Source of the DNA: Bacteroides sp.
GTDB taxonomy: Bacteria; Bacteroidota; Bacteroidia; Bacteroidales; SM23-62
Reading direction: 5' to 3'
Assembly: GCA_011053095.1 (NCBI GenBank)
Contig: DRHS01000002.1
Span: 2,122 to 66,121 of the forward strand
Length of the DNA stretch: 64,000 nucleotides
In this document: positions 8,531 through 58,324 of the stretch, piece after piece
Position numbering within the stretch: position 1 is the stretch's first letter
Layout: each line of letters begins with the position of its first letter
Program-made: the position numbers and the translations under genes
Notes under the pieces: model-generated
What the model was told of the DNA's origin: nothing
The model's input: only the letters and a program-made list of their open reading frames with translations
The model's database searches: none

Positions 8531-9802
8531 TTAGAACAATGAATCTACGGATCTGTACTCATTCACTGCTTCCAGCATTGCAATGATGTTTTGTATTGGC
8601 ACATTGCTCTGAATATTATGTACAGGATTAAACACATATCCACCATCACCATTAAAAATTTCAATGTTTTTTCTCACTTCATTTTTTACTTCGGACGGCG
8701 TTCCAAACGGCAATGTTTTTTGTGTATCTATTCCCCCTCCCCAGAAAACAATATCTTGCCCAAATTCTTTTTTAAGCTGTACCGGATCCATCCCAGTTGC
8801 TGAAATCTGAACAGGATTTAATATATCCCATCCCGCCTCAATAAAATCAGGAATCAATTCAATAATAGCTCCACAGGAATGAGTAAATGTTTTCCAATTG
8901 GTTAGTTCATGAATTTTATCATTCAGTATTTTCTGATATGGCTTGAATAATTCACGGTAAGATTCGATAGAACTGAACAGTCCGGTTTGGGTTCCGAAAT
9001 CTGTGCCACTGAGAAATACTACCTGAACGCGGTCCCCCATAGCATCAGCTAAAAGTTCAATATTTTTCAGTGCAATTTCACATTGATTCTCAAATATTTT
9101 ATGGATATATTCCGGTCTTGTCAACAAGGACATATACCATTCCGTTATATCACGAACGCCTTTGGGGTTTTTTAACCAGGGAGCTGGTACTAGTGCTATA
9201 TCACCAAATGCCATGCCTGGTAATGTTGCATATATTCCAAGATCAGTCTCTTCAAATAATTTTTTAGATAATTGTTCATAGTATACAAGATCATCTGGCG
9301 ATAGTATCTCAAATTCTTCAAAATTATCAGAAGGATTTAAATTTAAGTCATCAATGGGTAGTTGTCTTGGTAGAGCGTCAAAGAAGAAACTATCCCTGGG
9401 CATTTTAGCACATGGGGGTAAAGTAGTATCACCTTCAGGATACATGTAGATTGCTTCTGTTTCATCCTTAGTGTAATTAAATTTTTCGGGAACCAGACAA
9501 TCAACGCCTCTCATTGAAAATGGTTTCCAGCCTTCATTCCTAAAACCGAACATATTACCCGGGGTAGAAATTCCTGTAACGTCCAATTGCAGAGCATTGA
9601 TTAGTTGGAGGTCAATTTCTCCAAGCATCTGATATGGTTCAATAACTTTAACCTTGTAGTCAGGGTCGGCGATAATTCTTTGTCTCAAATTATGAGCTGC
9701 CAAAATACCCATTCCTGTTTGAGCTCCAGCACCAAGGTCAACGCATAATTGATCTGGCATTCTATGGTTAATTGTTGCTAATAATCTCTCTCTTGAATTC
9801 AT
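8531..9802 (-). CDS. URO-D superfamily protein (uroporphyrinogen decarboxylase / MtaA-like fold), function unknown, not HemE
   Basis: 423 aa with no signal peptide. N-terminus MNSRERLLATINHRMPDQLCVD is shared in pattern with the three paralogues below. Central THSCG motif at nt 8870-8881. It lacks the HemE RQAGR motif. Its ATG (9802-9800) overlaps the upstream GH2 stop codon (9804-9802) by 1 nt. Confidence 0.75.
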   Translation of the reverse strand: MNSRERLLATINHRMPDQLCVDLGAGAQTGMGILAAHNLRQRIIADPDYKVKVIEPYQMLGEIDLQLINALQLDVTGISTPGNMFGFRNEGWKPFSMRGVDCLVPEKFNYTKDETEAIYMYPEGDTTLPPCAKMPRDSFFFDALPRQLPIDDLNLNPSDNFEEFEILSPDDLVYYEQLSKKLFEETDLGIYATLPGMAFGDIALVPAPWLKNPKGVRDITEWYMSLLTRPEYIHKIFENQCEIALKNIELLADAMGDRVQVVFLSGTDFGTQTGLFSSIESYRELFKPYQKILNDKIHELTNWKTFTHSCGAIIELIPDFIEAGWDILNPVQISATGMDPVQLKKEFGQDIVFWGGGIDTQKTLPFGTPSEVKNEVRKNIEIFNGDGGYVFNPVHNIQSNVPIQNIIAMLEAVNEYRSVDSLF

Positions 9803-16744: not shown

Positions 16745-18139
16745 TTAACCTATCAATTCTTTTTCTATGGTTTCGAGTGATTTTTGCTTTGTTTCGATTA
16801 GTCTTGATCGTATAAAGATGAATCCTGCTACACAAACTAATCCGAATATCCAGAAAGAACCCGATGCTCCCAGGGCTTTGTTCAGGAAAGGAAAAGTATA
16901 TACGAGTATAAAACTTGCTGCCCAAAGTGAGACAGTAGCAACTGCCAGTGCAGCGCCGCGGACCCGATTCGGGAATATTTCGGATAAAACCACCCAGGTA
17001 ATTGGTGCAATTGACATTGCATAACATGCAATTGCGAGCAATACAACAATCAGTACTGGTAATCCATGGAATTCAAAATAATAAAAGGCTCCCATGACGG
17101 CATAAATGCCTGCAAGTCCAGCAGATCCAATCATCATCAGTGCTTTACGGCCAATCTTATCAACTGTATATATGGCCACAAAGGTAAATACCAGGTTGAC
17201 GCTGCCGGTGACTACAATATTGAATAGGATGTCTGAGACTCCATAGCCAGCAGCTGAAAAAATTTCCTCGGCATAATTGAATATAATGTTGATTCCGCAC
17301 CATTGCTGGAAGGCTGCAAGCACAATCCCAATTATTAAAACCTTTGACATACCACCCGAGAACAATGCTTTGAAGCTGACACCACCGGTATTGGCTTTAA
17401 GTGAATTCTCGATTTCGACGATCTCCCGTTCGGCATATTCTTTGCCTCCCAAACGCTTCAATATGGAAAGTACACGATCATATTTATTTCGTGTGGCAAG
17501 CCAGCGTGGACTTTCGGGGACGAACCACATAAGGGTAAAGAAAAGTGAAGCTGGAACAAGTTCTGCCCAGAACATCCACCTCCAGCCGCTTTGTCCATTC
17601 CATGATTGAAGTATATCAGCAGCATTTGCAGTTTCTGGAACAGGCTCTGCAATCAACCAGTTAACAATCTGTGCTGCCAGTATCCCGATTACAATGGTTA
17701 GCTGGTTTATGGAGACAAAACCTCCCCTGAATCGTGCAGGAGTTACTTCAGCTATGTACATTGGTGATAGATTGGAGGCCAGGCCAATGCCTATACCACC
17801 TAATATCCTGAATATGACAAAGGAGTTAAAATGATTGGATGCACCAGTTCCCAGAGCAGACAGGATAAATAAAAATGCTGCCAGGATTAACAGCCTTTTT
17901 CTTCCATATCGGTCGCTGAGAAATCCGGATAATATGGCGCCAAGAAGGCAACCTGTAAGGGCACAACTCATGGCCCAACCCTGCAACCTGGGAAGGTCAG
18001 CAATCTCAAAGAATTTCTCATAAAAGGGTTTCGCTCCCCCGATCACCACCCAGTCATAGCCAAACAGTAACCCACCCATGGCTGAAACAAGAGAAATACC
18101 AAAAATATATCGGTAGTTAAATTTATTTTGTAGTTCCAT
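16745..18139 (-). CDS. MFS sugar porter (sugar:H+ symporter, XylE/GalP-like)
   Basis: 464 aa. Motifs: GGLLFGYD, GRKRLL, PESPRWL, and the C-terminal PETKQKSLETIE (PETKG-type) motif. Twelve hydrophobic segments. Its start overlaps the upstream GH30 gene by 17 nt. Confidence 0.9.
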   Translation of the reverse strand: MELQNKFNYRYIFGISLVSAMGGLLFGYDWVVIGGAKPFYEKFFEIADLPRLQGWAMSCALTGCLLGAILSGFLSDRYGRKRLLILAAFLFILSALGTGASNHFNSFVIFRILGGIGIGLASNLSPMYIAEVTPARFRGGFVSINQLTIVIGILAAQIVNWLIAEPVPETANAADILQSWNGQSGWRWMFWAELVPASLFFTLMWFVPESPRWLATRNKYDRVLSILKRLGGKEYAEREIVEIENSLKANTGGVSFKALFSGGMSKVLIIGIVLAAFQQWCGINIIFNYAEEIFSAAGYGVSDILFNIVVTGSVNLVFTFVAIYTVDKIGRKALMMIGSAGLAGIYAVMGAFYYFEFHGLPVLIVVLLAIACYAMSIAPITWVVLSEIFPNRVRGAALAVATVSLWAASFILVYTFPFLNKALGASGSFWIFGLVCVAGFIFIRSRLIETKQKSLETIEKELIG

Positions 18140-41555: not shown

Positions 41556-42938
41556 GTGAAATATAAAATCAACATTCTGTTTGTCTCCGCAATTACGATG
41601 ATATCCGCTATGGGTGGATTATTATTTGGGTACGACTGGGTAGTGATAGGAGGCGCAAAGCATTTCTATGAAATTTATTTCAATATAATGGACTCTCCCA
41701 ATTTGCAGGGCTGGGCAACAAGCAGTGCATTAATAGGGTGTATTGCCGGGGCAATCCTGGCAGGTACTTTATCGGATAAATACGGCAGAAAACCACCCCT
41801 GATCTTTTCAGCACTGCTTTTTACAATATCAGCAATCGGTACCGGCATGGCTGAAAACTTCACAATATTCATTGTGTTCCGGTTGGTCGGAGGAATTGGT
41901 ATTGGCATGGCAGCATTACTTTCTCCGATATACATAGCAGAAATATCGCCGGCCCGTTTCAGGGGGCTTTTTGTATCAATAAACCAATTGACTATAGTTA
42001 TTGGAATTCTCCTGGCACAAATCGTTAATTATTATATTGCTGAAATTGTTCCTGAAGGATTTACAAATGAGCAAATTCGGAATTCCTGGAACGGACAAAT
42101 GGGCTGGCGATGGATGTTCTGGGCTGAAACCATTCTATCGATATCCTTTCTTTTTCTTGCGTTTTTAATTCCCGAAAGTCCCCGCTGGCTGGTTAAAGCT
42201 GATAAAGGGGACAAAGCCCTGAAAGTACTTTCAAAAATCGGGGGGATGGAGTTTGCTGCAAAAATAAAAGGAGAGATCCAGGATAACCTAAAGAGCGAAA
42301 CGACTAAAATAAATCTCAGGGAATTTAAACATCCCAAAATCAAAAAAATATTAATGATAGGAGTGATTTTCGCCATCCTTCAGCAAATGTGCGGCATAAA
42401 CGTAATTTTCATTTATTCTGATGAAATTTTCACAAATGCCGGATACGGTGTTAACGATATGCTGTTTAATATTATAATGACAGGAAGTGTTAATCTGCTA
42501 TTTACCCTTATTGCTCTCGGGGTAATAGATTCCTGGGGACGACGCCTGTTGATGAAGCTGGGATATGGTGTCTTGGCATTTATCTATATTATTTTCGGAA
42601 TATTTTATAAAATGGGCCTGACCGGTCCCGTTATGCTGGTCTGTGTTTTACTGGCAATTGGTATTTACGCCTTGGCCCTCGCCCCAACAACATGGGTTGT
42701 GCTATCTGAAATTTTTCCAAACAAGGTAAGAGGAGTGGCTATGTCGATAGCTACTTTTGCACTCTGGTCATCCAGTTTTCTAACTACCTATAGTTTTCCG
42801 ATTATTAATAAAACTTTTAAATCATACGGAACGTTTTGGATTTATGCAGGTGTATGCGTTTTGGGATTTATATTCGTTTATAAATTCCTGCCTGAAACCA
42901 AAGGGAAGACCCTAGAAGAAATTGAGGATGCATTTTAG
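41556..42938 (+). CDS. MFS sugar porter, paralogue of 16745-18139
   Basis: GTG start. The N-terminus is collinear with the paralogue (GGLLFGYDWVVIGGAK identical in both). Also GRKPPL, PESPRWL and PETKGKTLEEIE. Confidence 0.9.
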   Translation: MKYKINILFVSAITMISAMGGLLFGYDWVVIGGAKHFYEIYFNIMDSPNLQGWATSSALIGCIAGAILAGTLSDKYGRKPPLIFSALLFTISAIGTGMAENFTIFIVFRLVGGIGIGMAALLSPIYIAEISPARFRGLFVSINQLTIVIGILLAQIVNYYIAEIVPEGFTNEQIRNSWNGQMGWRWMFWAETILSISFLFLAFLIPESPRWLVKADKGDKALKVLSKIGGMEFAAKIKGEIQDNLKSETTKINLREFKHPKIKKILMIGVIFAILQQMCGINVIFIYSDEIFTNAGYGVNDMLFNIIMTGSVNLLFTLIALGVIDSWGRRLLMKLGYGVLAFIYIIFGIFYKMGLTGPVMLVCVLLAIGIYALALAPTTWVVLSEIFPNKVRGVAMSIATFALWSSSFLTTYSFPIINKTFKSYGTFWIYAGVCVLGFIFVYKFLPETKGKTLEEIEDAF

Positions 42939-42981: not shown

Positions 42982-44154
42982 ATGAACTCAAGAGAAAGAC
43001 TGCTAAAAGCGATTAATGGAGAGAAGACAGACAGAGTACCCGTTACCCTGTTCATTCAGGATCATGGGCATTATATTCATCAGTTGCATCCTGAGATCGA
43101 TCCAATGGATTACCAGCAACTCACATTTAAAGTGATTGATTACCAGAGAAAACTTGGCTGTGATGTTTTTGCCCGGATGATCTTCGATCTGTATCACCCG
43201 ATTAATATTTGCCTTGGTGGTGTAAATGACGGAGAGGAAACAGATACCTGGAAGGTTGATACAGAAATCATTGAGGAAGGGAATAATTACATCAAAAAAT
43301 CGAAAATAACAACCCCCGAAGGTGTACTTAACCAGACACTTACCCGAGCCTCACAGAATAAGGGCACACATGTATATTGCTGTACCGAAAAGCCAATTAC
43401 CACCGAAGAGGAACTTGACATTGCTATAAAATATGAACCAAAAATGTCAAAAGAGTATGGTGAAATGGTGACTGGAAAAATACAAAGAATAAAGGATTAC
43501 ATAGGAGATGACGGAATTCTCGGAACCTGGGTTTCCGGGGGTCCTGTAAACAATGCTTCAATGATTTTTGACCATGTTAGTTTATATATGCTGTTCATGA
43601 CTGATCCTGATTTTTTCGACAAACTGATGAGATTTACCACAGAGCGTACTCTCAGTTATACCAAGGCTTTCATTGATGCCGGAGCTGATGTTATGCTGGT
43701 TGGTGGCAATGTGGCGGGAGGCTTTCTGGGTACTGAAGTTTATGAAGACTATATATTAAAATACGAGAAAGAATATATTGATTTCATTCAAAATACCGGA
43801 ACACCGGCAGTTTATCATAATTGTGGAAACATTATGAATCTTGTTGAATCATATAAGAAACTTGGGGCACAGGTAGTAGAACCATTTTCTCCTGTACCAC
43901 TTGGAGATGCAGACTTAAAGAAAGCAAAGGAGATTGTAGACGGAGAATATGTAATGATCGCTGGGATAGATCAGGTAAATGTTTTAAAAAATGGTACCGT
44001 CGAAGACGTTATCAAAGTGACAAAAGAAACTATTGATATTGGTAAAAAAGGCGGAAAATTTATCATGCAGAGTGTTGATTTTCTGGAATATAATACGCCT
44101 CCTGAAAATGTGGAGGCATTTGTAAAAACAGCTCTTGAAAATGCATATTACTAA
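42982..44154 (+). CDS. URO-D superfamily protein (MtaA/HemE-like fold), function unknown
   Basis: 390 aa with no signal peptide. N-terminus MNSRERLLKAINGEKTDRVPVT. HNCG motif at nt 43816-43827. No RQAGR motif and no Cys downstream of the HxCG motif. It starts 43 nt after the sugar porter. Confidence 0.75.
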   Translation: MNSRERLLKAINGEKTDRVPVTLFIQDHGHYIHQLHPEIDPMDYQQLTFKVIDYQRKLGCDVFARMIFDLYHPINICLGGVNDGEETDTWKVDTEIIEEGNNYIKKSKITTPEGVLNQTLTRASQNKGTHVYCCTEKPITTEEELDIAIKYEPKMSKEYGEMVTGKIQRIKDYIGDDGILGTWVSGGPVNNASMIFDHVSLYMLFMTDPDFFDKLMRFTTERTLSYTKAFIDAGADVMLVGGNVAGGFLGTEVYEDYILKYEKEYIDFIQNTGTPAVYHNCGNIMNLVESYKKLGAQVVEPFSPVPLGDADLKKAKEIVDGEYVMIAGIDQVNVLKNGTVEDVIKVTKETIDIGKKGGKFIMQSVDFLEYNTPPENVEAFVKTALENAYY

Positions 44155-48444: not shown

Positions 48445-48460
48445 TTAAAATATTCCTGCG

Positions 48461-50520: not shown

Positions 50521-52512
50521 ATGAATCAAACTACAATATCTCTTATAGTTACATTATTTATGTTCCAGCTGTCATCATGTGACCAATTACAGGATGCGGG
50601 AAAGCATGATAGCCTGGTTATTCAAATCGATCCTGAAGGATCAGGACGGACTTTTGAGGGGATAGGCGGAGTCAGCGCAGGAGCATCGTCGGAATTGTTG
50701 ATTGATTATCCCGAACCATACAGGTCAGATATCCTTGACTATCTTTTCAAGCCGGGATTTGGAGCTTCCTTTCAGCAACTTAAAGTAGAGATAGGAGCAG
50801 ATGCAGTGGTGGTAGGATCAGAACCCAGCCATGCACGGAACCGAGATGAACTGCTCAATCCCAGGCCGGAATATTATCAGAGAGGTTATGAGTTCTGGTT
50901 TATGAAAGAAGCCCTGAAACGAAATCCCACGATAACTACCTCTGCACTCGAATGGGCTGCGCCGGCATACCTTGGGGGACACTGGACGCAGGCCAATGCC
51001 GATTACATTGTTCAATTTATCAGAGGTGCAAAAGATTTTTGGGACATAGACATTAAGTACATTTCTCCGGGCAAAAATGAAAGTAAAATCAGTACAGAAT
51101 GGCTGAAGGATGTTTTCAAACCAACACTCGATGCAGCCGGTTTTTCCGATGTAAAAATACTTGCCCCGGATAACCTTGGTTATTATTGGGAGATATGTGA
51201 AGAGATGATAACAGATCCGGAGCTTGAATCTGTTATTGATGCAGTAGGCTATCATTATGTATATTATCATCTTCCACAATTGGGTCATGAGGAATATGCC
51301 TCTACAGAATCTGCAAAATCTCTGGATGCATCGCTCTGGGCGTCGGAGGACTGGTCTGCGCACGATGGATCCTGGAAAAATGCACACCTACTGGCCGGTA
51401 TCCTTAATAAAATGTATATCCGTGACCGTATTACAGCTATGCAGATTTGGTGTCCATTCGACGGGTATTATGATAATACCGGAGAATGGAAATCTACCGG
51501 ACTGATGAAAGCCGATCAACCTTGGACCGGATACTATGAAGTCTCCCCAGCCATATGGGCAGCTGCACATTTTACTCAATTCACAGATATTGGATGGAAC
51601 TATATTGACTCCGCTTGTGGTTATTTTGAGTCTTCATCGGGTGGCAACTATACCACTCTGATCAATCCTGAAAAGACCGAATATTCTACTATTTTCTTTA
51701 CAGACAGTGTTGCCAGATCTATCGAGCTTATCTGCCCGGAGCAAGCAAGTGGAAGAATTCATAAAATTTGGCATTCTAATGAGAGTGAACAATTTGTCCA
51801 ATTACAAGACATCGAACCCCTCAATGGAAGGATCACACTCGAACTCGAGCCCGGGTCCATCTATACCATATCTACTTTGGAAGGACGCAGAAAAGGGAAA
51901 GCTCTTTCAGCGATCCCTGATTCCGCAGGTTTCCCAATACCATATGCTGAGAATTTTAACGAGGAACGACCGGGTATGAGTCCCTCGTATTTCGCAGACA
52001 TTCAGGGAAGTTTTGAATTAACATCAGCAAACGGAAAACAATGGCTGGAACAAAAAGTTACAGAGGATCCCATCGATTGGACCTTCTTCAATGCATTCAA
52101 GCCCCTTGGCCCACTTACCCAGGTTGGTGATATCACCTGGGAAGATTATGATGTTTCAGTAGACGTTATGCTCCCCGACGAGGGATATGCACAGCTTATT
52201 GCACGGATGGGAGAACTGCCAGTTTATACCAGTGGATATATACTTAAGCTGTATCATGACGGATATTGGGAATTACTATTAAACAGCCACCAAATATTGG
52301 GCTCCGGCAAAATCGGGAATAAGAGCAATGAATGGCATAGTTTGATGCTGCGATGTTCAGGTTCCAGGATTGAAGCATACATAGATGGATCCCTTCTTAA
52401 GATGGTCGAGGACGACAGGGTTGGAAGGGGACTTGTGGGACTTGGATGCAGCTGGAATAAAATCAGATTCGATAACCTTACAATTGAAGAATATGTACAA
52501 AATCCCAAGTAA
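50521..52512 (+). CDS. GH59 glycoside hydrolase (galactocerebrosidase-like beta-galactosidase) with C-terminal lectin-like domain, lipoprotein
   Basis: Long collinear matches to human GALC as I remember it: [33 protein letters not shown] vs [48 protein letters not shown] vs GYEWWLMKEAKKRNP; KNES (acid/base-type); LWASEDWS vs LWSSEDFS (nucleophile); [14 protein letters not shown] vs SPVWVSAHTTQFT. The signal ends in QLSSC. ATG at 50521. Confidence 0.9.
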   Translation: [663 protein letters not shown]

Positions 52513-52516
52513 ATAC

Positions 52517-53626
52517 ATGGATCGCATAGAAAACTCCAAGGAAAGAATCCGAGCTGTCTATGAACACCGTAACCTTGAGATGCCATATATCGTGAACTAC
52601 ATGAATTACTGGCTTGAGGGTGAAACCCCATCCATGATACCTCAAGATTATTTCGATGATCCTGCTGTTATGACAGATTTTCAGCTGAAGAAGATTGATT
52701 TTCACATGGAAAATTTTCAGGATGATTTCATCCCCCTGCTGCATCCCTGGTTCGGAATAGGAGTGGTACCATCGGCAATGGGATGTGAAATTGAATTTGT
52801 AAAAAATGGGGATCCTGCAATACGTAAAGCCGCCATCAACCACCCCGAACAAATAATGGAGCTGAAAAGGCCGGATCCTTATAGTGATGGACTTATGCCC
52901 AGGGTACTCGGGGCAATCGACTATATGAAACAGCATACCGATATTCCTGTGAGTGTAACCGATACCCAGGGACCCTTGAATATTGCACTAAGTGTATGTG
53001 GACTTGAAAACATGTTCTCCTGGATGCTTATGTATCCGGAAAAGGCACATGAATTAATGGAACTAAGTACAGATATCCTAATTGATTGGGTAAAGGTTCA
53101 GAAAAAACATGCGGGACAGGAGATGGAATCAGGTGCCTGGCCCCATGCTATCCACCTTCCTGAGGGATATGGGGGTGTATGGCTTTCTGATGATGATTGC
53201 ACCCAGCTTCCGGCCGATCTTTACAGGGAATTTGTTGTCCCCTATAACAGCAAGGTGCTAAAAGCCTTCGGGGGTGGGACGATTCATTTCTGCGGAACGG
53301 CGGATCACCAGCTTGATAATTTCCTGGCGACAGATGGACTTACAGGGATCAATAATTTCTGCATGGGAGATTTCAACCAGGTAAAGCTGATGCAGGAGAA
53401 GTTTGAGGACAAGATTGCCATAATGGTTTGTGATTTCGCTCCCCTGGATATGGAAGGATATTTTCATGAAATCTTTTCTGTTATGCGCACTAAAGGCAAT
53501 ATTCTGGCAATTTTTATTGCCCCCGAATTTGCCCTGGGTGACGGACGCTATAAATTGGGTTCCCGCGAGGGTAATGAAACATCGAGGATTATCAATGAAA
53601 TTATTCGGAAGCAATTAAATAGATAA
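52517..53626 (+). CDS. URO-D superfamily protein (MtaA/HemE-like fold), function unknown
   Basis: Start taken at the ATG at 52517, 4 nt after the GH59 stop; the track ORF from 52385 overlaps GH59. N-terminus MDRIENSKERIRAVYEHRNLEMPYIV. HFCG motif at nt 53285-53296. No signal peptide and no RQAGR motif. Confidence 0.7.
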   Translation: MDRIENSKERIRAVYEHRNLEMPYIVNYMNYWLEGETPSMIPQDYFDDPAVMTDFQLKKIDFHMENFQDDFIPLLHPWFGIGVVPSAMGCEIEFVKNGDPAIRKAAINHPEQIMELKRPDPYSDGLMPRVLGAIDYMKQHTDIPVSVTDTQGPLNIALSVCGLENMFSWMLMYPEKAHELMELSTDILIDWVKVQKKHAGQEMESGAWPHAIHLPEGYGGVWLSDDDCTQLPADLYREFVVPYNSKVLKAFGGGTIHFCGTADHQLDNFLATDGLTGINNFCMGDFNQVKLMQEKFEDKIAIMVCDFAPLDMEGYFHEIFSVMRTKGNILAIFIAPEFALGDGRYKLGSREGNETSRIINEIIRKQLNR

Positions 53627-53634
53627 ACTGCATT

Positions 53635-54300
53635 ATGACTGAATGGAAAAATGATGATGAGCTGATCAGGACCATTAAAGAGGAACTGTTCACCGCAGTG
53701 ATTGGAGATATCATGGACAAGATGAATTATCTGAACCAATTCCTTCCTCCTCAGATTCAGCCCCTCCGTGACAACATGATAGTGGTTGGCAGGGCAATGC
53801 CGGTACTTGAGGCAGATACCTTTGGGAATACCGTTGCGGGTACGGCCAATGACTTAATGAACAAACCTTTTGGATTAATGCTCGAGGCGCTTGATGACCT
53901 TAAGAAAAATGAAGTTTACATCTGTACGGGATCCTCTCCCAGTTATGCTTTATGGGGTGAGTTGATGAGCACAAGGGCCATAAAATTAGGTGCTGCAGGC
54001 GCAGTGGTTGATGGGTATGCCCGGGACACCCTGGGCATATTGGACCTGAACTTCCCCACATTTTGCTACGGTAGGTACGCACAGGACCAGGCTCCACGCG
54101 GTAAGGTGATTGACTTCCGGCTGCCAGTTCAAATAGGAAATGCTAAGGTCAATCCCGGAGATCTGGTAGTTGGAGATCTTGACGGTGTCTGCATCGTTCC
54201 CAGAGATATCGAGAAAGAGGTTATCGGGGAGTCCCTTGAGAAAGCCAGGGGAGAAAAAATGGTACAAAAAGCCATTGAAGAGGGAATGAGCGCAAGGTAA
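53635..54300 (+). CDS. RraA-family protein (class II pyruvate aldolase / oxaloacetate decarboxylase-like)
   Basis: 221 aa. LWGELMSTRAIKLGAAGAVVDGYARDT...FPTFCYG...PGDLVVGDLDGVCIVP matches the RraA/HMG-CHA aldolase family pattern (G.....A...G..G.V.DG..RD ... GD.DGV..VP). Confidence 0.8.
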   Translation: MTEWKNDDELIRTIKEELFTAVIGDIMDKMNYLNQFLPPQIQPLRDNMIVVGRAMPVLEADTFGNTVAGTANDLMNKPFGLMLEALDDLKKNEVYICTGSSPSYALWGELMSTRAIKLGAAGAVVDGYARDTLGILDLNFPTFCYGRYAQDQAPRGKVIDFRLPVQIGNAKVNPGDLVVGDLDGVCIVPRDIEKEVIGESLEKARGEKMVQKAIEEGMSAR

Positions 54301-54338
54301 GCTTTTGATAAATTTGGAATAATGTAACTCTGAAAATT

Positions 54339-55499
54339 ATGAAGATTACTGATGTAAAAGTCTGGCTTGTCGAGGGAATAAAGTACAACTGGACCATGCT
54401 GAAGATCTATACCGATGAAGGTTATACAGGAGTAGGAGAGGCTACCAACTGGCCTGGAAGCCCTATCGTTGAAGCTGCAGCAAAACACGCGGGTGAAAGG
54501 ATAATAGGCATGGATCCTATCCGAACGGATTATATCTGGACCAAGCTTTACCGGGACCTTAACTGGGTAGGACCATTTGGCGCTAGTTTATGTGCCATTA
54601 GTGGCATAGATATGGCCCTGCTTGACCTGAAGGCCAAGGTCCTCGGAGTCCCATGCTATGACTTATTGGGAGGTGCATACAGGAATGAGATCCTGCTCTA
54701 TGCAAATTACTGGTTTATAGATGGGGGACATAATGCCCGTGATTATGCTGATCAGGCACTAAAGGTGGTTGAGAAAGGTTTTACGGGACTCAAATTTGAT
54801 CCATTTGCACACACAAGTTATTTTTATGGGGACGATCTTTCCACAAATATGGCATTGGACCGTGACCAGCAGGATAAATCCTATGAAATTGTGAAAGCCG
54901 TCAGAGAGGCAGTTGGTCCAAATGTCGATATACTGATAGAAACACATGCCCTGCTGAATTTCAAGACTGCCATCATAATGGCCGAACGCTTAGCCGAACT
55001 TGATATTACATGGTTTGAAGAACCTGCCGGACCTGAGAACGAAAAGACATTGAAGGTTTTCAGGGAGCGCCTTGATCCCAGGGTCTCAATATGTGTGGGT
55101 GAGAGGCATTATACCCGCTATGGTATCAGGCCAATCCTGGAAAACGGTATTTGCGATATCATTATGCCCGATATTACCCGATGCGGTGGACCATCCGAGA
55201 TGAAGCGAATGGCGACAATGGCAGAAACCTATAGTGTACTGATTGCTCCGCACAATCCCAACGGTCCGTTGAGCACCCTGGCAAGTGGACATGTATGTGC
55301 CTCTATACCAAATTTATACCGACAGGAATTTATGCTGAAAGATGTGCTCTGGAGAGATGAAATCATCGATCACCCCCTTGAGTTCAAGAATGGGCACCTG
55401 GTACTTTCAGACCGATCGGGACTTGGGGTCGATCTTGTAGAAGAAGTGATGGAAGCGCATCCTGGTATTCGTAAAGCGAAACAGGGTTTTTATGTATAA
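54339..55499 (+). CDS. enolase-superfamily sugar-acid dehydratase (mandelate racemase/muconate lactonizing family; galactonate/mannonate dehydratase-like)
   Basis: MKITDVKVWLVEG...LKIYTDEGYTGVGEAT is a DgoD/ManD-like N-terminal capping domain. Barrel motifs: GIDMALLDLKAKVLGVPCYDLLGG, VDILIETH, ITWFEEP, ICVGER, DIIMPDITRCGG. Confidence 0.85.
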   Translation: MKITDVKVWLVEGIKYNWTMLKIYTDEGYTGVGEATNWPGSPIVEAAAKHAGERIIGMDPIRTDYIWTKLYRDLNWVGPFGASLCAISGIDMALLDLKAKVLGVPCYDLLGGAYRNEILLYANYWFIDGGHNARDYADQALKVVEKGFTGLKFDPFAHTSYFYGDDLSTNMALDRDQQDKSYEIVKAVREAVGPNVDILIETHALLNFKTAIIMAERLAELDITWFEEPAGPENEKTLKVFRERLDPRVSICVGERHYTRYGIRPILENGICDIIMPDITRCGGPSEMKRMATMAETYSVLIAPHNPNGPLSTLASGHVCASIPNLYRQEFMLKDVLWRDEIIDHPLEFKNGHLVLSDRSGLGVDLVEEVMEAHPGIRKAKQGFYV

Positions 55500-55517
55500 C
55501 CCATATTAATATTAAAT

Positions 55518-56309
55518 ATGATACCCATTGATCTCAAAGACAAAGTGGCCATTGTGACAGGTGTTTCCAGTGGGATCGGTGCCGGTGTTGCGGCAACCCT
55601 TGCAGAAGCTGGCTGCCACATATCCTGTTGCGCAAAGAATAATCCGGATTCCCCGGGAGTCTTGAATTTCATACATACAGTGGAATCTCTTGATCGCAAA
55701 TGCATGTATCAGAAAGCAGATGTCACATCCACAGAGGAAATTCAATCCTTAGTAAAAAATACCGTTGATAAATATGGCAGGATTGACATCCTTATATCCA
55801 ATGCGGGAATGAATGTTTTTAAAGGTGCTGAGGAAGCTTCAGAAGGAGACTGGGATTTTAATATGAACCTCAATCTGAAGTCTCACTGGACAATTGCCAA
55901 ACTATGTAAACCATATCTATCAGAAAGTCCGAATGGTGTAATTATTATTAACTCCTCCAATCATGCCTACAGTACAATACCCGGTTGTTTCCCCTATAAT
56001 GTATCCAAGGCTGGAATTTCTGGCCTGGTACAGTCCATTGCCATTGAATGGGGACCTGATATCCGAACCATTGGGATTGCTCCCGGATTTATCGTTGTCG
56101 AAAGCACAAAAGCATGGTTCGATTCCTTCCCCGATCCCGGGGCTGAGCTGGAAAGAACCATACAGAGACATCCTGCGGGCAAGATTGGGACTCCCCAAGA
56201 CATAGGGGCGTTCTGCGCTTTCCTGGCCAGTGATTATGCGGGATTTATTACAGGTGTTACCTACCTTATCGACGGGGGCAGATCTGCTCTAATGCAGGAT
56301 GATCAATAA
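55518..56309 (+). CDS. short-chain dehydrogenase/reductase (SDR)
   Basis: TGVSSGIGAG (TGxxxGxG), NAG and YNVSKAG (YxxxK). 263 aa. The stop TAA (56307-56309) overlaps the next ATG (56309-56311). Confidence 0.9.
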   Translation: MIPIDLKDKVAIVTGVSSGIGAGVAATLAEAGCHISCCAKNNPDSPGVLNFIHTVESLDRKCMYQKADVTSTEEIQSLVKNTVDKYGRIDILISNAGMNVFKGAEEASEGDWDFNMNLNLKSHWTIAKLCKPYLSESPNGVIIINSSNHAYSTIPGCFPYNVSKAGISGLVQSIAIEWGPDIRTIGIAPGFIVVESTKAWFDSFPDPGAELERTIQRHPAGKIGTPQDIGAFCAFLASDYAGFITGVTYLIDGGRSALMQDDQ

Positions 56310-57205
56310 TGCAGGCTGAACTCATATATGATGCACGTGCAACGCTCGGCGAGGGTCCATTCTGGGACCATCAAAATGACCTGCTGATCTGGGTCGACAT
56401 CGAAGAAGGCAGTGTGCATTTTTACAATCCTGCCAATGGGCAGGATAAATACCGGGAGCTTGGAACGAGAATTGGAATGGCAGTACCAAATACCGAAGGA
56501 CATATAATCGCAGCCCTACAGGATGGATTCGCCTGGATTATTGAAGACAGTAATCCGATTTATATTGCGGATCCGGAAAATGATCTTAAAAATAACAGGT
56601 TCAATGACGGGAAATGTGATCCTCAGGGACGGCTCTGGGCAGGGACGATGGATTTGGAAGCTGAGGAAAATTGCGGAAGTCTTTATCGTATGAATGAAGA
56701 CCTCACGGTCTCTCAAATGATATCCGGTGTCAGCATTTCAAACGGACTGGCATGGTCGCATGATTCTAAAACCATGTATTACATAGATACCCTTAGCTAC
56801 AATGTAATGTCATATGAATTTAGTCCCTCAGAAGGTATCATTGCCAACCCGGAGACAGTTATCGTAATCCCGAAAGACCATGGCGCCCCCGACGGCATGA
56901 CCATTGACCGGGATGGAAAGCTCTGGATCGCTCACTGGGGTGGGGGAAATGTCAGCCGCTGGGATCCCGATACCGGTCAATTGATGAAGGTAATAATCGT
57001 TCCGGTGCCTCAACCCACATCCTGTGTTTTTGGAGGCAGTCTGCTGGATACTCTTTATATTACATCTGCCAGAACAGGATTATCCGTACAGGAACTTAAT
57101 GAATACCCGGAAAGCGGGGGATTATTTGCTGTAAAACCGGGGGTGAGCGGCTATCACTCTTCCTGCTTTAAAGGAAAACCCGGGCGGATTGATGATAAGA
57201 TGTGA
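56309..57205 (+). CDS. SMP-30/gluconolactonase/LRE-family lactonase
   Basis: LGEGPFWDHQNDLLIWVDI, RFNDGKCDPQGRLWAGTM, SNGLAWSHDSKTMYYIDT, PDGMTIDRDGKLWIAHWGGG and TSCVFGG...LYITSA form a regucalcin-type six-blade pattern. Confidence 0.85.
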   Translation: MQAELIYDARATLGEGPFWDHQNDLLIWVDIEEGSVHFYNPANGQDKYRELGTRIGMAVPNTEGHIIAALQDGFAWIIEDSNPIYIADPENDLKNNRFNDGKCDPQGRLWAGTMDLEAEENCGSLYRMNEDLTVSQMISGVSISNGLAWSHDSKTMYYIDTLSYNVMSYEFSPSEGIIANPETVIVIPKDHGAPDGMTIDRDGKLWIAHWGGGNVSRWDPDTGQLMKVIIVPVPQPTSCVFGGSLLDTLYITSARTGLSVQELNEYPESGGLFAVKPGVSGYHSSCFKGKPGRIDDKM

Positions 57206-57250: not shown

Positions 57251-58324
57251 ATGAGTACAAATAGAGAAAATCTTATAAGATCCCTGAAACGTGAAGGCTT
57301 TGATCATGTGCCAGTAGATTTCTGGCTATGTGAATCGCAGATTAAGGCCTTTAAGGATCGGATAGGACATGAAGATTACCAGTACTGGTTTAATCTGAGC
57401 CACAGAATGTTTGAAATGGAGGTTAGGAGAAATTTTAAAGATGGGCATGAACTGTTTCATAGAGAAAAGCTTCCTTCAGACACAAAGTTTGATGAATATG
57501 GAATAGGTCATTCCAAAGGTTCAGAATTGGCATTTCATATGACAAGGATGCACCATCCGCTGAAAGGAGCCGGTTTGAGCGAGATTCTCGATTATCCTTA
57601 CCCCTCAGTAGACTCCCAAAAGGAGAAGAAAATAGAAGAAATTGTAAATGGTTTGCATAGCCAGGGACTAGCTTCCTTTGCTTTCATGCAGATGACTGTA
57701 TGGGAAGCCTCATGGTATCTTAGATCCATGGAGGAATTGATGATGGACATGATGATGATGGATGAAAAAGCAACCGTTCTTCTTGATAAAATCACCGAGT
57801 TTGCCTGCGCCAAAGCCGGTGCATATGCGGAAGCCGGAGTGGACATCTTGAGCCTTGGAGATGATATCGGTACTCAGAATTCTATAATGATTGATGTGGG
57901 ACTATGGGAGCAATGGCTGAAACCCAGGATCTCAAAGGTTATCGAGACTGCCCGGGAAATCAATCCGGATATATTAATATTTTATCATTCCTGCGGATAT
58001 ATTGTTCCCTTCATCGACCAGCTTATCGAAGTTGGCGTGGATATATTGAACCCTATCCAGCCCGAATGTATGAGTTTTGATGAAATCGCCAATAAGTATG
58101 GCAATAGGGTGTCATTTTGGGGAACAATCGGTACGCAGGAACTCTTGCCCTTTGGTACAGCTAATGAAGTCAGGAAAGTGAGTACATCAAGGCTTGAGAA
58201 ATGTGGAGAAAAGGGAGGTCTTTGCATTGGTCCGACACACCTTGTCGAACCCGAAGTTCCCTGGGAAAACCTTATGGCAATCAAGGAAGCCGTCAGTGAA
58301 TTTGAAAGCAAAATTAAAGGGTGA
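57251..58324 (+). CDS. URO-D superfamily protein (MtaA/HemE-like fold), function unknown
   Basis: 357 aa with no signal peptide. N-terminus MSTNRENLIRSLKREGFDHVPVD. HSCG motif at nt 57986-57997. Its C-terminal part (VDILNPIQPE..FWGTIGTQELLPFGT..EV) closely parallels 8531-9802 (WDILNPVQIS..FWGGGIDTQKTLPFGTPSEV). Confidence 0.75.
   Translation: MSTNRENLIRSLKREGFDHVPVDFWLCESQIKAFKDRIGHEDYQYWFNLSHRMFEMEVRRNFKDGHELFHREKLPSDTKFDEYGIGHSKGSELAFHMTRMHHPLKGAGLSEILDYPYPSVDSQKEKKIEEIVNGLHSQGLASFAFMQMTVWEASWYLRSMEELMMDMMMMDEKATVLLDKITEFACAKAGAYAEAGVDILSLGDDIGTQNSIMIDVGLWEQWLKPRISKVIETAREINPDILIFYHSCGYIVPFIDQLIEVGVDILNPIQPECMSFDEIANKYGNRVSFWGTIGTQELLPFGTANEVRKVSTSRLEKCGEKGGLCIGPTHLVEPEVPWENLMAIKEAVSEFESKIKG

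What the first reader, a model, noticed from the sequence alone, without database searches (positions are those of the whole stretch)
8531..58324. Four divergent cytoplasmic URO-D/MtaA-fold paralogues wired into the glycan locus (candidate undescribed sugar-modifying step)
**Seen:**
- Four ORFs (8531-9802 minus; 42982-44154, 52517-53626 and 57251-58324 plus) share an N-terminal pattern: M-(N/S)-(S/T)-(N)-RE-(R/N)-L-(L/I)...D-(R/H)-VPV.
- All four have a central H-x-C-G motif: HSCG 8870-8881, HNCG 43816-43827, HFCG 53285-53296, HSCG 57986-57997.
- Two of them (8531-9802 and 57251-58324) share a C-terminal DILNP(V/I)Q...FWG...T(Q)..LPFGT..EV segment.
- None has a signal peptide or the HemE RQAGR motif.
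- No other haem-pathway gene and no B12/corrinoid-binding protein is present in the window.
- Each sits directly beside sugar-handling genes: a GH2 (1-nt overlap), a sugar porter, GH59 and the RraA-like gene, and the lactonase and esterase.

**Established:** the URO-D fold superfamily contains HemE and the zinc-dependent MtaA/MtbA/CmuA-type methyltransferases. The latter have an HxCxnC zinc motif and work with corrinoid proteins in methyl-ether, methylamine and methanol metabolism.

**Inference:**
- These are not haem enzymes. They are a paralogue family acting in the cytoplasm on imported mono- or oligosaccharides.
- Candidate roles are removal or transfer of O-methyl groups from methylated sugars, or a decarboxylation.
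- Only two of the four have any Cys downstream of HxCG, so a full MtaA-like zinc triad is not conserved and the chemistry may be new.
- I know of no described role for this fold in a PUL.
Basis: partly seen in the sequence, partly recalled or inferred. Interest (0 to 1): 0.85.

Follow-up and report, generated by a model that had tools for sequence, protein, structure and literature searches.

The report
Candidate B12-dependent sugar demethylases in a glycan locus
Four divergent MtaA-like (uroporphyrinogen-decarboxylase-fold) enzymes sit beside sugar importers in this Bacteroidales glycan-degradation locus; close relatives elsewhere sit in operons with vitamin-B12 carrier proteins, so they probably remove methyl groups from methylated sugars, a step not yet explained in anaerobes.

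Summary
All four ORFs exist at the stated coordinates and pass Pfam URO-D (PF01208). Models of two of them match MtaA best and HemE second, and all four share H-x-C-G. None is HemE.

Each belongs to a large, conserved family. The U1 family has relatives in at least 586 species of more than ten phyla.

The gene neighbourhood is conserved. A sugar transporter (MFS or SSF) lies within 600 bp of the U1 orthologue in 36 of 80 loci, usually with AraC regulators and GH2, GH35 or GH95 genes.

The new result concerns corrinoid partners. The window has none, but orthologues elsewhere are contiguous with the classic corrinoid O-demethylase set. A 74%-identical U4 orthologue lies in the order corrinoid protein, RACo activase, URO-D, MFS sugar porter, FucU/RbsD mutarotase. 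Upstream on the opposite strand lie AraC, FTHFS, a pterin-binding methyltransferase and MTHFR. U1 orthologues adjoin a corrinoid protein, and in some loci RACo, DUF1638 or a sugar ABC importer, in 5-6 of 80 loci.

The "missing" third zinc Cys is an invariant His in U1 and U4 and an invariant Asp in U2.

Best reading (confidence about 0.6): these are substrate-specific methyltransferase-I components of a corrinoid-dependent O-demethylase for imported methylated sugars, with the corrinoid partners encoded in trans. No paper describing this was found. No substrate or activity has been tested.

The parts
8531..9802 (-). U1: 423-aa URO-D-fold, MtaA-like putative methyltransferase. HSCG is at 8870-8881. 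The predicted third metal ligand His395 is at 8618-8620.
   Evidence: - Pfam URO-D 64.5 bits.
- AF2 model pLDDT 87.6; best Foldseek matches are MtaA 4ay8/4ay7, TM 0.67-0.68 normalised to MtaA.
- D268, Q272, H308, C310, G311, N329, P330, Q332, W354, H395 and N396 are invariant in all 85 family sequences compared.
- Orthologues adjoin a sugar transporter in 36 of 80 loci and a corrinoid protein in 6 of 80.
42982..44154 (+). U2: 390-aa URO-D-fold putative methyltransferase. HNCG is at 43816-43827. Candidate further metal ligands are Glu300 and Asp366 (44077-44079).
   Evidence: - Pfam URO-D 114 bits. MtaA 4ay7 at E = 1.4e-9.
- Family invariants H279, N280, C281, G282, E300, D366 and E369.
- hhalign maps D366 onto U4 H330.
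- Orthologues lie next to MFS sugar porters, a monosaccharide ABC importer or polysaccharide lyases.
52493..53626 (+). U3: 369-377-aa URO-D-fold paralogue. HFCG is at 53285-53296.
   Evidence: - Pfam URO-D 85 bits.
- Across 20 family members, H257 and G260 are invariant and C259 is kept in at least 90%.
- In three metagenome loci, U3 and U4 orthologues are directly adjacent.
- The third ligand position could not be resolved.
57251..58324 (+). U4: 357-aa URO-D-fold, MtaA-like putative methyltransferase I. HSCG is at 57986-57997. The predicted third ligand His330 is at 58238-58240.
   Evidence: - Pfam URO-D 70 bits.
- AF2 model pLDDT 90.6; best Foldseek matches are MtaA 4ay7/4ay8, TM 0.66-0.72.
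- The family profile aligns H246/C248 to MtaA HICG and H330 to the Cys of MtaA APGCG.
- A 74%-identical orthologue (P0024, locus L095) lies in the order corrinoid protein, RACo, URO-D, Sugar_tr, FucU.
41556..42938 (+). MFS sugar porter immediately upstream of U2. Candidate importer of the substrate.
   Evidence: - Pfam Sugar_tr 374 bits.
- 60% identical to the porter that follows the U4 orthologue in the corrinoid operon of L095.
16745..18139 (-). Second MFS sugar porter, on the same strand as GH30, GH2 and U1.
   Evidence: - Pfam Sugar_tr 378 bits.
- 58% identical to the L095 porter.
7550..8431 (-). FolD (methylene-THF dehydrogenase/cyclohydrolase), 99 bp downstream of U1 on the same strand. 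Possible link to oxidation of a THF-bound methyl group.
   Evidence: - Pfam THF_DHG_CYH 137 bits and THF_DHG_CYH_C 215 bits.
- FolD is also adjacent to a U1 orthologue in L013 (Acidobacteriota).
- L095 carries FTHFS, Pterin_bind and MTHFR beside the U4 orthologue.
- Membership in the system is inferred, not shown.
53635..57205 (+). Sugar-acid pathway genes between U3 and U4: RraA-like aldolase, enolase-superfamily dehydratase, SDR and SMP-30 lactonase.
   Evidence: - Pfam hits.
- Context only. These genes show that U3 and U4 sit inside a cytoplasmic monosaccharide catabolic block.
59079..62387 (+). DUF5107 + TPR protein (1102 aa) that co-occurs with URO-D paralogues in other phyla. Function unknown.
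   Evidence: - Pfam DUF5107 199 bits plus TPR repeats.
- Homologues lie beside URO-D paralogues in L008 (Clostridium sediminicola), L022, L078 (Bellilinea) and L091/L092.

Best explanation
U1-U4 are cytoplasmic, probably zinc-dependent methyltransferases of the URO-D/MtaA fold. Each most likely acts as the substrate-specific methyltransferase I of a corrinoid-dependent O-demethylase.

**Proposed pathway**
1. The locus's extracellular and periplasmic glycoside hydrolases and sulfatases release methyl-etherified monosaccharides or small oligosaccharides.
2. The adjacent MFS sugar porters import them.
3. In the URO-D barrel, a metal held by His-x-Cys plus a third His (U1, U4) or Asp/Glu (U2) polarises the ether oxygen.
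4. Co(I) of a small corrinoid protein takes the methyl group, leaving the free sugar for ordinary catabolism.
5. Methyl-Co(III) is discharged by a pterin-binding methyltransferase II to tetrahydrofolate.
6. The methyl group is oxidised through MTHFR, FolD and FTHFS. A RACo-type activase re-reduces any Co(II) that forms.

In this genome the corrinoid protein, activase and MT II would be encoded outside the 64-kb window and shared by the four paralogues. The paralogues would differ in which methylated sugar they accept.

**Shown:** fold; family membership; conserved motif set; conserved linkage to sugar transporters; physical linkage of orthologues to corrinoid, RACo, MT II and THF genes.

**Inferred:** substrate class; direction of transfer; metal identity; partners acting in trans.
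For: **Fold and motifs**
- All four pass Pfam URO-D and score higher against MtaA/CmuA models than against HemE.
- The U4 and U1 models match MtaA first and HemE second.
- HxCG aligns with the MtaA zinc HxC. The position of the MtaA third Cys holds His in U4 (invariant in 30 of 30 sequences) and in U1 (85 of 85), and Asp in U2 (invariant).

**Linkage to sugar import**
- MFS Sugar_tr or SSF lies within 600 bp of the U1 orthologue in 36 of 80 genomes. These span Planctomycetota, Verrucomicrobiota, Acidobacteriota, Hydrogenedentota, Bacteroidales and others.
- AraC and GH35-GH2-GH95 recur alongside.
- U4 orthologues occur as AraC-UROD-SSF-GH2 or with GH3. U2 orthologues lie with MFS porters or a monosaccharide ABC importer.

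**Linkage to corrinoid machinery**
- L095, around a U4 orthologue of 74% identity, runs: corrinoid protein (B12-binding_2 + B12-binding), RACo, URO-D, Sugar_tr, RbsD/FucU. Upstream on the opposite strand lie AraC, FTHFS, Pterin_bind and MTHFR.
- A second contig repeats RACo-UROD-Sugar_tr-FucU.
- L080 runs: U1-like, corrinoid protein, sugar substrate-binding protein, two ABC permeases.
- L012, L064, L084 and L057 carry a corrinoid protein plus RACo; L012, L064 and L057 also carry DUF1638.
- Corrinoid-linked and transporter-linked U1 orthologues interleave in the tree and share every invariant residue.
- The corrinoid proteins and RACo of these loci, L095 included, are about 45-60% identical to one another. 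The L095 porter is 58-60% identical to both window porters.

**Background**
- The UroD superfamily already contains the phenolic O-demethylase MT I enzymes OdmB and VdmB (PMC10418091).
- Anaerobic sugar demethylation is stated to be unexplained (PMC12316285).
- FolD lies 99 bp downstream of U1.
Against: - No corrinoid protein, RACo, MT II or MtaB is in the window, nor in about 90% of orthologue loci. Known MT I genes usually sit beside their corrinoid protein.
- Two U1-like loci (L084, L057) carry MtaB next to the corrinoid protein. There the U1-like protein could be the MtaA-type MT II rather than MT I.
- Some host lineages (Pirellulales, Verrucomicrobiae, Chthonomonadales) are typically aerobic, which is awkward for Co(I) chemistry.
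- In L095 several genes are split by frameshifts. This could reflect assembly errors or decay.
- In L032 the corrinoid protein is separated from the U1 orthologue by housekeeping genes.
- No methylated sugar is known for this locus's target glycan, which could not be identified.
- No activity has been tested.
Confidence: 0.6

Rival explanations
1. **Corrinoid-protein-independent enzymes with new chemistry.** The URO-D barrel acts alone on the imported sugar. One option is a MetE-like direct zinc-assisted methyl transfer between a sugar ether and THF or a thiol. Another is a different zinc-dependent modification or decarboxylation of a sugar or sugar acid.
For: - About 90% of U1-family loci and the window itself have no corrinoid gene nearby.
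- The family occurs in lineages that are usually aerobic.
- MetE, which transfers methyl groups without cobalamin, has the same fold and is recovered by Foldseek.
- The ligand set (His/Cys/His, or His/Cys/Glu/Asp) differs from the MtaA His/Cys/Cys.
- FolD adjoins a U1-family gene in two genomes.
- U3 and U4 sit among keto-deoxy sugar-acid enzymes.
Against: - Orthologues with an identical invariant residue set are operon-linked to a corrinoid protein, RACo, DUF1638 and MT II in several phyla. That is hard to explain if the enzyme does not use a corrinoid.
- No precedent exists for thiolate or N5-THF attack on an unactivated alkyl methyl ether (my own knowledge).
- HemE-type decarboxylation needs a pyrrole substrate, and the HemE motif is absent.
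Confidence: 0.17
2. **MtaA-type methyltransferase II.** The proteins take methyl groups from a methyl-corrinoid protein and pass them to an acceptor such as THF or a thiol. The corrinoid is loaded by MtaB from methanol, for example methanol released by esterases from methyl-esterified glycans. Under this reading they are not the sugar-specific component.
For: - L084 (KSB1) has the canonical order RACo, MtaC-like corrinoid protein, MtaB (541 bits), U1-like. L057 (Verrucomicrobiae) carries U1-like, DUF1638, RACo, AraC, MtaC and MtaB.
- HxC is exactly at the MtaA zinc position.
- The closest sequence and structure match is MtaA itself.
- GDSL and other esterases lie next to U4 and its relatives.
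Against: - No MtaB is in the window or in L095.
- In L095 a separate pterin-binding MT II is present, which leaves the URO-D protein as the only candidate MT I.
- A generic MT II would not be expected to sit next to sugar transporters and AraC regulators in 36 of 80 genomes, or to occur as four divergent paralogues in one PUL.
- In L057 the MtaB cluster is itself flanked by sugar ABC importers.
Confidence: 0.13
3. **Methyl-sulfur or methyl-selenium metabolism.** The proteins work like MtsA or the Mlp proteins of type 1 mlp gene clusters, with zinc activating a thiol or thioether substrate rather than a sugar ether.
For: - An HxC zinc site is typical of thiol-activating members (MtaA, MtbA, MtsA, MetE).
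- Mlp clusters also combine several UroD-family paralogues with one corrinoid protein and an activase (PMC10418091), as in L064.
Against: - Identity to MtaA is only 13-18% in the structural alignments, below the >25% that defines Mlps (PMC10418091).
- The neighbours are sugar porters, a mutarotase, glycoside hydrolases and sulfatases, not sulfur-metabolism genes.
- The Cys-rich ligand set is replaced by His or Asp.
Confidence: 0.05
4. **Genuine uroporphyrinogen decarboxylases (HemE)** of haem biosynthesis, as the database name suggests.
For: - Source annotations call relatives "uroporphyrinogen decarboxylase".
- All four match Pfam URO-D.
Against: - HemE equivalog scores are 12-41 bits for U1-U3 and no match for U4, against a cut-off of 303.
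- There is no RQAGR motif and no haem gene nearby.
- There are four paralogues at 21-27% identity, and an HxC metal motif that HemE lacks.
Confidence: 0.01

Closest known systems
Corrinoid-dependent aryl O-demethylase systems of anaerobes (Acetobacterium dehalogenans OdmABCD/VdmB; Desulfitobacterium hafniense Dhaf_4610-4612): MT I of the UroD superfamily, corrinoid protein, pterin-binding MT II, RACo-type activase
   Same: - The four-component logic is seen intact around the U4 orthologue in L095: URO-D-fold MT, B12-binding_2 + B12-binding protein, RACo, Pterin_bind protein, plus MTHFR and FTHFS.
- MT I belongs to the UroD superfamily (PMC10418091).
   Different: - The known substrates are phenyl methyl ethers such as vanillate, veratrol and guaiacol. 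Here the operon partners are sugar porters, a sugar mutarotase and glycoside hydrolases, which implies alkyl (sugar) methyl ethers.
- In the window, the MT genes are unlinked from the corrinoid partners and embedded in a PUL.
- I could not compare sequences with OdmB or VdmB here.
MtaA/MtbA/MtsA methylcobamide:CoM methyltransferases of methanogens (PDB 4AY7; TIGR01463)
   Same: - Best sequence and structure match.
- H-x-C aligns with the zinc motif.
- They work with a small corrinoid protein.
   Different: - Scores are 46-96 bits against a family cut-off of 235, and structural-alignment identity is 13-18%.
- The third zinc Cys is replaced by His or Asp.
- The hosts are non-methanogenic bacteria, which to my knowledge do not make CoM.
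- U1 carries an extra beta-rich insert, about 80 residues longer than MtaA.
Cytochrome P450 / ferredoxin / ferredoxin-reductase 6-O-methyl-D-galactose demethylase of aerobic marine bacteria (Reisky et al. 2018; PMC6292453)
   Same: - The same proposed physiological job: removing a methyl ether from an algal or plant sugar inside a polysaccharide-utilisation context so that the sugar can enter central metabolism.
   Different: - An unrelated fold and mechanism: O2-dependent oxidation that releases formaldehyde.
- The system proposed here is O2-independent methyl transfer to cobalt and THF.
Type 1 mlp gene clusters (MtaA-like proteins + corrinoid protein + RACE; Kountz & Balskus, PMC10418091)
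   Same: - Several UroD-superfamily paralogues share one corrinoid protein and one activase in non-methanogens. L064 looks like this.
   Different: - Mlps are defined by >25% identity to CoM methyltransferases and are proposed to act in methyl-sulfur or methyl-selenium metabolism.
- The present families are more distant and are linked to sugar transport and glycoside hydrolases.
Cobalamin-independent methionine synthase MetE (same fold clan)
   Same: - The (beta/alpha)8 barrel has a zinc site built from His-x-Cys, a Glu on the next strand and a late ligand. U2 keeps the Glu position, E300.
   Different: - MetE is a double barrel of about 750 aa. It binds homocysteine and methyl-THF and needs no corrinoid.

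Membership tests
Pfam URO-D (PF01208) / UroD superfamily | Match to the family HMM above the gathering score | tested here: met
   U1 64.5, U2 114.4, U3 85.2 and U4 70.2 bits against a cut-off of 23.9.
Pfam URO-D (PF01208) / UroD superfamily | URO-D-type (beta/alpha)8 barrel fold | tested here: met
   - AF2 models of U4 (pLDDT 90.6) and U1 (pLDDT 87.6) hit MtaA and more than 20 HemE structures at Foldseek E = 1e-8 to 1e-11, TM 0.6-0.7.
- U2 and U3 were not modelled.
HemE (uroporphyrinogen decarboxylase, TIGR01464) | Equivalog HMM score above the cut-off (302.95 bits) | tested here: not met
   U1 11.9, U2 40.9 and U3 26.0 bits; U4 has no hit.
HemE (uroporphyrinogen decarboxylase, TIGR01464) | N-terminal substrate-binding RQAGR motif | tested here: not met
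   Absent from all four.
MtaA/CmuA family methyltransferases (TIGR01463; NF040654 MtaA; NF041608 MtbA) | Family HMM score above the cut-off (235-600 bits) | tested here: not met
   The best scores are 46-96 bits against TIGR01463. These are distant relatives, not members.
MtaA/CmuA family methyltransferases (TIGR01463; NF040654 MtaA; NF041608 MtbA) | H-x-C-x(n)-C zinc motif | tested here: not met
   - H-x-C is present and aligned to MtaA HICG.
- The distal Cys of MtaA (APGCG) is His in U4 and U1 and Asp in U2. It is unresolved in U3.
- A metal site is still plausible, but with a different ligand set.
Corrinoid-dependent O-demethylase system (MT I + corrinoid protein + MT II + activase) | MT I belongs to the UroD superfamily | tested here: met
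   PMC10418091 places OdmB and VdmB in this superfamily.
Corrinoid-dependent O-demethylase system (MT I + corrinoid protein + MT II + activase) | Cognate corrinoid protein (B12-binding_2 + B12-binding) encoded with the MT | tested here: inconclusive
   - Not in the window.
- Present beside orthologues in L095 (U4 type) and in L012, L080, L064, L084 and L057 (U1 type).
- The rest of this genome could not be searched.
Corrinoid-dependent O-demethylase system (MT I + corrinoid protein + MT II + activase) | RACo-type reductive activase and pterin-binding MT II | tested here: inconclusive
   - RACo is present in L012, L057, L064, L084 and L095. Pterin_bind, MTHFR and FTHFS are present in L095.
- None is in the window.
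Corrinoid-dependent O-demethylase system (MT I + corrinoid protein + MT II + activase) | Methyl transfer from a methyl ether to Co(I) | not testable with these tools
   Needs anoxic enzyme assays.
Mlp proteins of type 1 mlp gene clusters | >25% identity to a characterised CoM methyltransferase, in a cluster with a corrinoid protein and a RACE activase | tested here: not met
   13-18% identity to MtaA in the structural alignments, and no such cluster in the window.

The most novel reading that the evidence does not exclude
In this genome, and in the roughly 90% of carrier genomes where no corrinoid gene is linked, the URO-D paralogues demethylate sugars without a dedicated corrinoid protein. 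The His/Cys/His(Asp) metal site would activate the sugar ether, and the methyl group would pass directly to tetrahydrofolate or a thiol. This would be a MetE-like reaction run on an ether, and a methyl-ether cleavage chemistry not described before. FolD immediately downstream of U1 would process the product.
Probability: 0.12. Interest if true: 0.9.

Novelty: new variant of a known kind. Interest (0 to 1): 0.78.

Why it matters
**The open question.** Methyl ethers on sugars occur in porphyran and agars (6-O-methyl-galactose), in RG-II (2-O-methyl-fucose and 2-O-methyl-xylose), in xylans and arabinogalactans (4-O-methyl-glucuronate), and in many microalgal and bacterial exopolysaccharides. They block ordinary sugar catabolism.
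- The only characterised sugar demethylase is an O2-dependent P450 (PMC6292453).
- A 2025 study of the gut porphyran PUL states that demethylation in anaerobes "has not been elucidated yet" (PMC12316285).

**What this finding offers.** It gives a concrete, testable candidate: a widespread set of MtaA-like enzyme families. The U1 family alone has relatives in at least 586 species of Planctomycetota, Verrucomicrobiota, Bacteroidota, Acidobacteriota, Chloroflexota, Kiritimatiellota, Bathyarchaeia and others. The genes are wired to sugar importers and, in some genomes, to a complete corrinoid/THF methyl-transfer module.

**If confirmed, it would:**
- add an O2-independent step to glycan degradation;
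- link polysaccharide turnover to cobamide availability and C1 metabolism in sediments and guts;
- correct thousands of "uroporphyrinogen decarboxylase" annotations;
- supply biocatalysts for cleaving alkyl methyl ethers.

Tried and rejected
- **HemE identity:** rejected.
- **Mlp or CoM-methyltransferase membership:** rejected on score and identity.
- **A closer solved structure:** none exists. Sequence and profile searches of the PDB return only MtaA 4ay7 and one HemE. Foldseek returns nothing nearer than MtaA.
- **Literature:** nine searches combined URO-D/UroD, PUL, glycoside hydrolase, methyl sugars, corrinoid/cobalamin and demethylation. None found a paper on this role. The library holds only CC-licensed PMC papers and bioRxiv, so absence there is not proof.
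- **Target glycan via the GH30 genes:** the best PDB hit, 3clw, is an uncharacterised exported protein, so the glycan remains unknown.
- **A 915-aa protein next to U1 orthologues in 6 loci:** it shows only marginal similarity to the GH67/GH115 N-terminal domain. The tempting link to 4-O-methyl-glucuronidases is therefore not supported.
- **Greedy longest-ORF gene calling:** it failed in high-GC loci because antisense shadow ORFs displaced real genes. I replaced it with tblastn against a labelled panel plus clustering of unlabelled ORFs.
- **L032 corrinoid protein:** it turned out to be separated from the U1 orthologue by housekeeping genes, so I do not count it as operon evidence.
- **Metal-site geometry:** it could not be measured, because model coordinates are not exposed to the scripting sandbox.
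- **U3's third ligand:** unresolved, because the profile alignment ends before that position.

Full report
**1.

The four ORFs exist exactly as described:
- U1: 8531-9802 (-), 423 aa.
- U2: 42982-44154 (+), 390 aa.
- U3: 52517-53626 (+), 369 aa. Homologues extend about 10 residues further upstream, so ATG 52493 is the more likely start.
- U4: 57251-58324 (+), 357 aa.

They are 21-27% identical to one another. The H, C and G of H-x-C-G are three of only ten invariant columns, and the quoted motif coordinates are correct. None has the HemE RQAGR motif, and only U3 and U4 have Cys residues after HxC.

All four pass the Pfam URO-D gathering score (64-114 bits against 23.9). NCBIfam ranks MtaA/CmuA-type models above HemE for each, but far below the family cut-offs.

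AlphaFold2 models were compared with the PDB by Foldseek:

| Model | pLDDT | Best match | Next matches |
|---|---|---|---|
| U4 | 90.6 | MtaA 4ay7/4ay8 | HemE, then the MetE barrel |
| U1 | 87.6 | MtaA 4ay8/4ay7 | HemE, then the MetE barrel |

No closer solved structure exists.

**2. The setting**

The window is a Bacteroidota polysaccharide-utilisation locus. It contains:
- SusC and SusD.
- Four GH30 genes, two of them with T9SS sorting domains.
- Two GH2 genes and one GH59 gene.
- Two sulfatases.
- A hybrid two-component regulator.
- An aldose epimerase.
- Two MFS sugar porters.
- A lactonase, SDR, dehydratase and RraA-aldolase block.

An identical copy of U4 is recorded from a MAG labelled "Bacteroides sp.". 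The window holds no haem gene and no corrinoid protein, RACo, MtaB or DUF1638.

**3. Each paralogue represents a large conserved family**

- U4: more than 3,400 homologues, and the top 120 clusters are at least 68% identical.
- U1: at least 8,000 homologues.
- U2: 773 homologues with a strikingly constant length of 390 aa. Cultured carriers include Sedimentisphaera salicampi and Clostridium sediminicola.
- U3: 1,357 cluster representatives.

The best 80 are 53-64% identical. They span Planctomycetota, Verrucomicrobiota, Kiritimatiellae, Lentisphaerae, Acidobacteriota, Armatimonadota, Hydrogenedentota, Anaerolineae, Bacteroidales, Ignavibacteriae, KSB1, Spirochaetales and Bathyarchaeia. To my knowledge most of these lineages are polysaccharide degraders.

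**4. The link to sugar import is conserved**

- An MFS Sugar_tr or SSF gene lies within 600 bp of the U1 orthologue in 36 of 80 loci. This is a lower bound, because many contigs end at the gene.
- Recurrent arrangements are AraC-UROD-transporter and UROD-transporter-GH35-GH2-GH95.
- U4 orthologues appear as AraC-UROD-SSF-GH2, GH9-UROD-SSF-GH3, and beside GH95 and sialic-acid-type genes.
- U2 orthologues sit by MFS porters (Sedimentisphaera), a monosaccharide ABC importer (Clostridium) or heparinase-II/III-like lyases.
- U3 and U4 orthologues are directly adjacent in three metagenome loci. One of these lies inside a sialidase, NanA-like lyase and NanM-SSF cluster.

**5. New evidence: corrinoid machinery next to orthologues**

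I clustered the unlabelled neighbours of the 80 U1 loci. This revealed a 210-220-aa protein with the DxHxxG, SxL and GG signature, and a 2Fe-2S/ASKHA protein. Pfam confirms these as a B12-binding_2 + B12-binding corrinoid protein and a RACo reductive activase.

Six of the 80 loci carry the corrinoid protein:

| Locus | Host lineage | Arrangement |
|---|---|---|
| L012 | Verrucomicrobiia | Corrinoid protein ends 22 bp before the U1 orthologue; RACo and DUF1638 nearby |
| L080 | Anaerolineales | U1-like, corrinoid protein, sugar substrate-binding protein, two ABC permeases |
| L064 | Acidobacteriota | DUF1638, three U2-like genes, RACo, corrinoid protein, two U1-like genes |
| L084 | KSB1 | RACo, corrinoid protein, MtaB, U1-like |
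| L057 | Verrucomicrobiae | U1-like, DUF1638, RACo, AraC, corrinoid protein, MtaB; flanked by sugar ABC importers |
| L032 | Phycisphaerae | Corrinoid protein 5.5 kb away, separated by housekeeping genes; discounted |

In a neighbour-joining tree the corrinoid-linked orthologues interleave with the transporter-linked ones. All 85 sequences keep D268, Q272, H308, C310, G311, N329, P330, Q332, W354, H395 and N396. I therefore treat this as one enzyme family seen in two genomic contexts.

The clearest case is L095, around P0024, which is 74% identical to U4 and is part of the U4 alignment with all invariants. On one strand it runs:
- corrinoid protein
- RACo
- URO-D
- MFS sugar porter
- RbsD/FucU mutarotase

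The gaps in this run are 18-99 bp. Upstream, on the opposite strand, lie AraC, FTHFS, a pterin-binding methyltransferase, and the MTHFR C-terminal and catalytic parts. A second, independent contig repeats RACo-UROD-Sugar_tr-FucU.

This is the full four-component architecture of a corrinoid-dependent O-demethylase plus the methyl-THF oxidation branch, joined to a sugar importer. Because a separate pterin-type MT II is present, the URO-D protein is left as the substrate-side MT I.

Three further links tie L095 to the window and to the U1 loci:
- The L095 porter is 58-60% identical to both window porters.
- Its corrinoid protein and RACo are about 45-50% identical to those of the U1-type loci.
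- FolD, the one step missing from the L095 set, lies 99 bp downstream of U1 in the window and next to a U1 orthologue in L013.

**6. The metal site**

- The U4 family profile aligns H246-S-C248-G with MtaA H-I-C-G, and the invariant H330 (GPTH) with the Cys of MtaA APGCG. From my own knowledge, these MtaA positions form its H-x-C-x(n)-C zinc motif.
- U1 H308, C310 and H395 map onto the same positions.
- In U2, H279 and C281 match. E300 occupies the strand-end position where MetE has its Glu ligand, and the invariant D366 replaces the distal ligand.
- U3 keeps H257 and C259, but its distal ligand could not be aligned.

The triad is therefore remodelled (Cys to His or Asp) rather than lost. Harder ligands would make the metal a better Lewis acid for an oxygen ligand. 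That fits ether activation, but it is an inference.

**7. Most likely mechanism**

Glycoside hydrolases and sulfatases release methylated sugars, and MFS porters import them. Each URO-D paralogue then binds one kind of methyl sugar. Its metal polarises the ether oxygen, and Co(I) of a corrinoid protein removes the methyl group. MT II passes the methyl group to THF, and MTHFR, FolD and FTHFS oxidise it. RACo repairs oxidised cofactor.

In this genome the partners would act in trans.

I put this at about 0.6. The main weaknesses are:
- There are no partners in the window or in about 90% of loci.
- The MtaB-containing loci allow an MT II reading for the U1 type.
- Some host lineages are aerobic.
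- L095 contains frameshifts.
- The target glycan is unknown.
- There is no biochemistry.

Rival readings:
- Corrinoid-independent new chemistry: 0.17.
- MtaA-type MT II serving methanol-derived methyl groups: 0.13.
- Methyl-sulfur metabolism of the Mlp or MtsA kind: 0.05.
- True HemE: 0.01.

**8. Comparison with what is known**

- **How it works.** It resembles the aryl O-demethylases of acetogens and Desulfitobacterium, whose MT I enzymes (OdmB, VdmB) are UroD-superfamily proteins (PMC10418091).
- **Membership.** It is a member of the URO-D superfamily. It is not a member of HemE, of the MtaA/CmuA family as defined by NCBIfam, or of the Mlps.
- **Physiological role.** It would parallel the P450 6-O-methyl-galactose demethylase of aerobic marine bacteria (PMC6292453) by an unrelated, O2-independent route.
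- **Prior description.** Nine literature searches found no paper linking this fold, or any corrinoid system, to sugar demethylation or to PULs.
- **Open question.** PMC12316285 (2025) says explicitly that anaerobic demethylation of methyl-galactose is undiscovered.

**9. Verdict**

The finding is best described as a new variant of a known kind: the corrinoid O-demethylase principle applied to sugars and wired into glycan loci. Interest is high because it makes an acknowledged open question directly testable, but the functional claim rests on genomic context alone.

Noticed in passing
window 48450-50368 (+): The second sulfatase gene appears disrupted. A signal peptide and the sulfatase N-terminus (MNFRIYILILLSYG...) are followed by an in-frame stop just before the formylglycine motif CSPSR. 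As a result, the longest clean ORF (48725-50368) lacks the first ~127 positions of the Pfam sulfatase profile. This is either a pseudogene or a sequencing error.
   Followed up: partly
window 59079-62387 (+); L008 12332-15658; L022 3-1604; L078 19202-21694; L091 80-3415: A roughly 1,100-aa DUF5107 + TPR protein of unknown function co-occurs with URO-D paralogues in Bacteroidales, Clostridium sediminicola, Pirellulales, Bellilinea and metagenome contigs. It may belong to the same system, for example as a scaffold or sensor, or as an enzyme with a mutarotase-like fold.
   Followed up: partly
window 7550-8431 (-); L013 2024-2875: FolD lies directly beside a U1-family gene in two unrelated genomes (this window and an Acidobacteriota MAG). 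L004 has GcvT/H/P about 3.5 kb downstream of its U1 orthologue. This may reflect a link to THF-bound C1 units, or it may be coincidence.
   Followed up: partly
L084 7028-8389; L057 15444-16817: Full-length MtaB homologues (methanol:cobalamin methyltransferase, about 540 bits) occur in KSB1 and Verrucomicrobiae MAGs, next to a corrinoid protein, RACo and a U1-like gene. In L057 they are flanked by sugar ABC importers. Two readings are possible: methanol use by non-methanogens, or MtaB running in reverse to release the methyl group as methanol.
   Followed up: no
L064 700-11254: An Acidobacteriota MAG has five URO-D paralogues in a row (three U2-like, two U1-like) with one DUF1638, one RACo and one corrinoid protein. 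This resembles a multi-substrate demethylase island.
   Followed up: no
L035, L041, L042, L047, L067, L069 (e.g. L069 7136-9880): A conserved secreted protein of about 915 aa, with no solid Pfam match, adjoins U1 orthologues in six Planctomycetota, Kiritimatiellae and Anaerolineales loci. It has only marginal similarity to the N-terminal domain of GH67/GH115 alpha-glucuronidases. It may be an undescribed glycoside hydrolase family.
   Followed up: partly
L091 5204-12195: The U3-U4 orthologue pair sits directly after a NanM-SSF fusion transporter, a DHDPS/NanA-like lyase and a BNR sialidase-like gene, with esterases and a sulfatase following. This suggests a modified nonulosonic-acid substrate for this pair in that organism.
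   Followed up: no
window 26783-27868 (-) and 32708-34672 (-): Two PUL genes lack any functional domain match. One is a 361-aa protein just downstream of SusD with no Pfam hit. The other is a 654-aa protein whose only match is a T9SS sorting domain. They are likely surface glycan-binding proteins or novel enzymes.
   Followed up: no
L095 425-6421: Several genes of the corrinoid/THF module (MTHFR, the Pterin_bind methyltransferase, the corrinoid protein) are split into fragments by frameshifts, while the URO-D, porter and RACo genes are intact. This is probably long-read assembly error, but gene decay cannot be excluded.
   Followed up: partly
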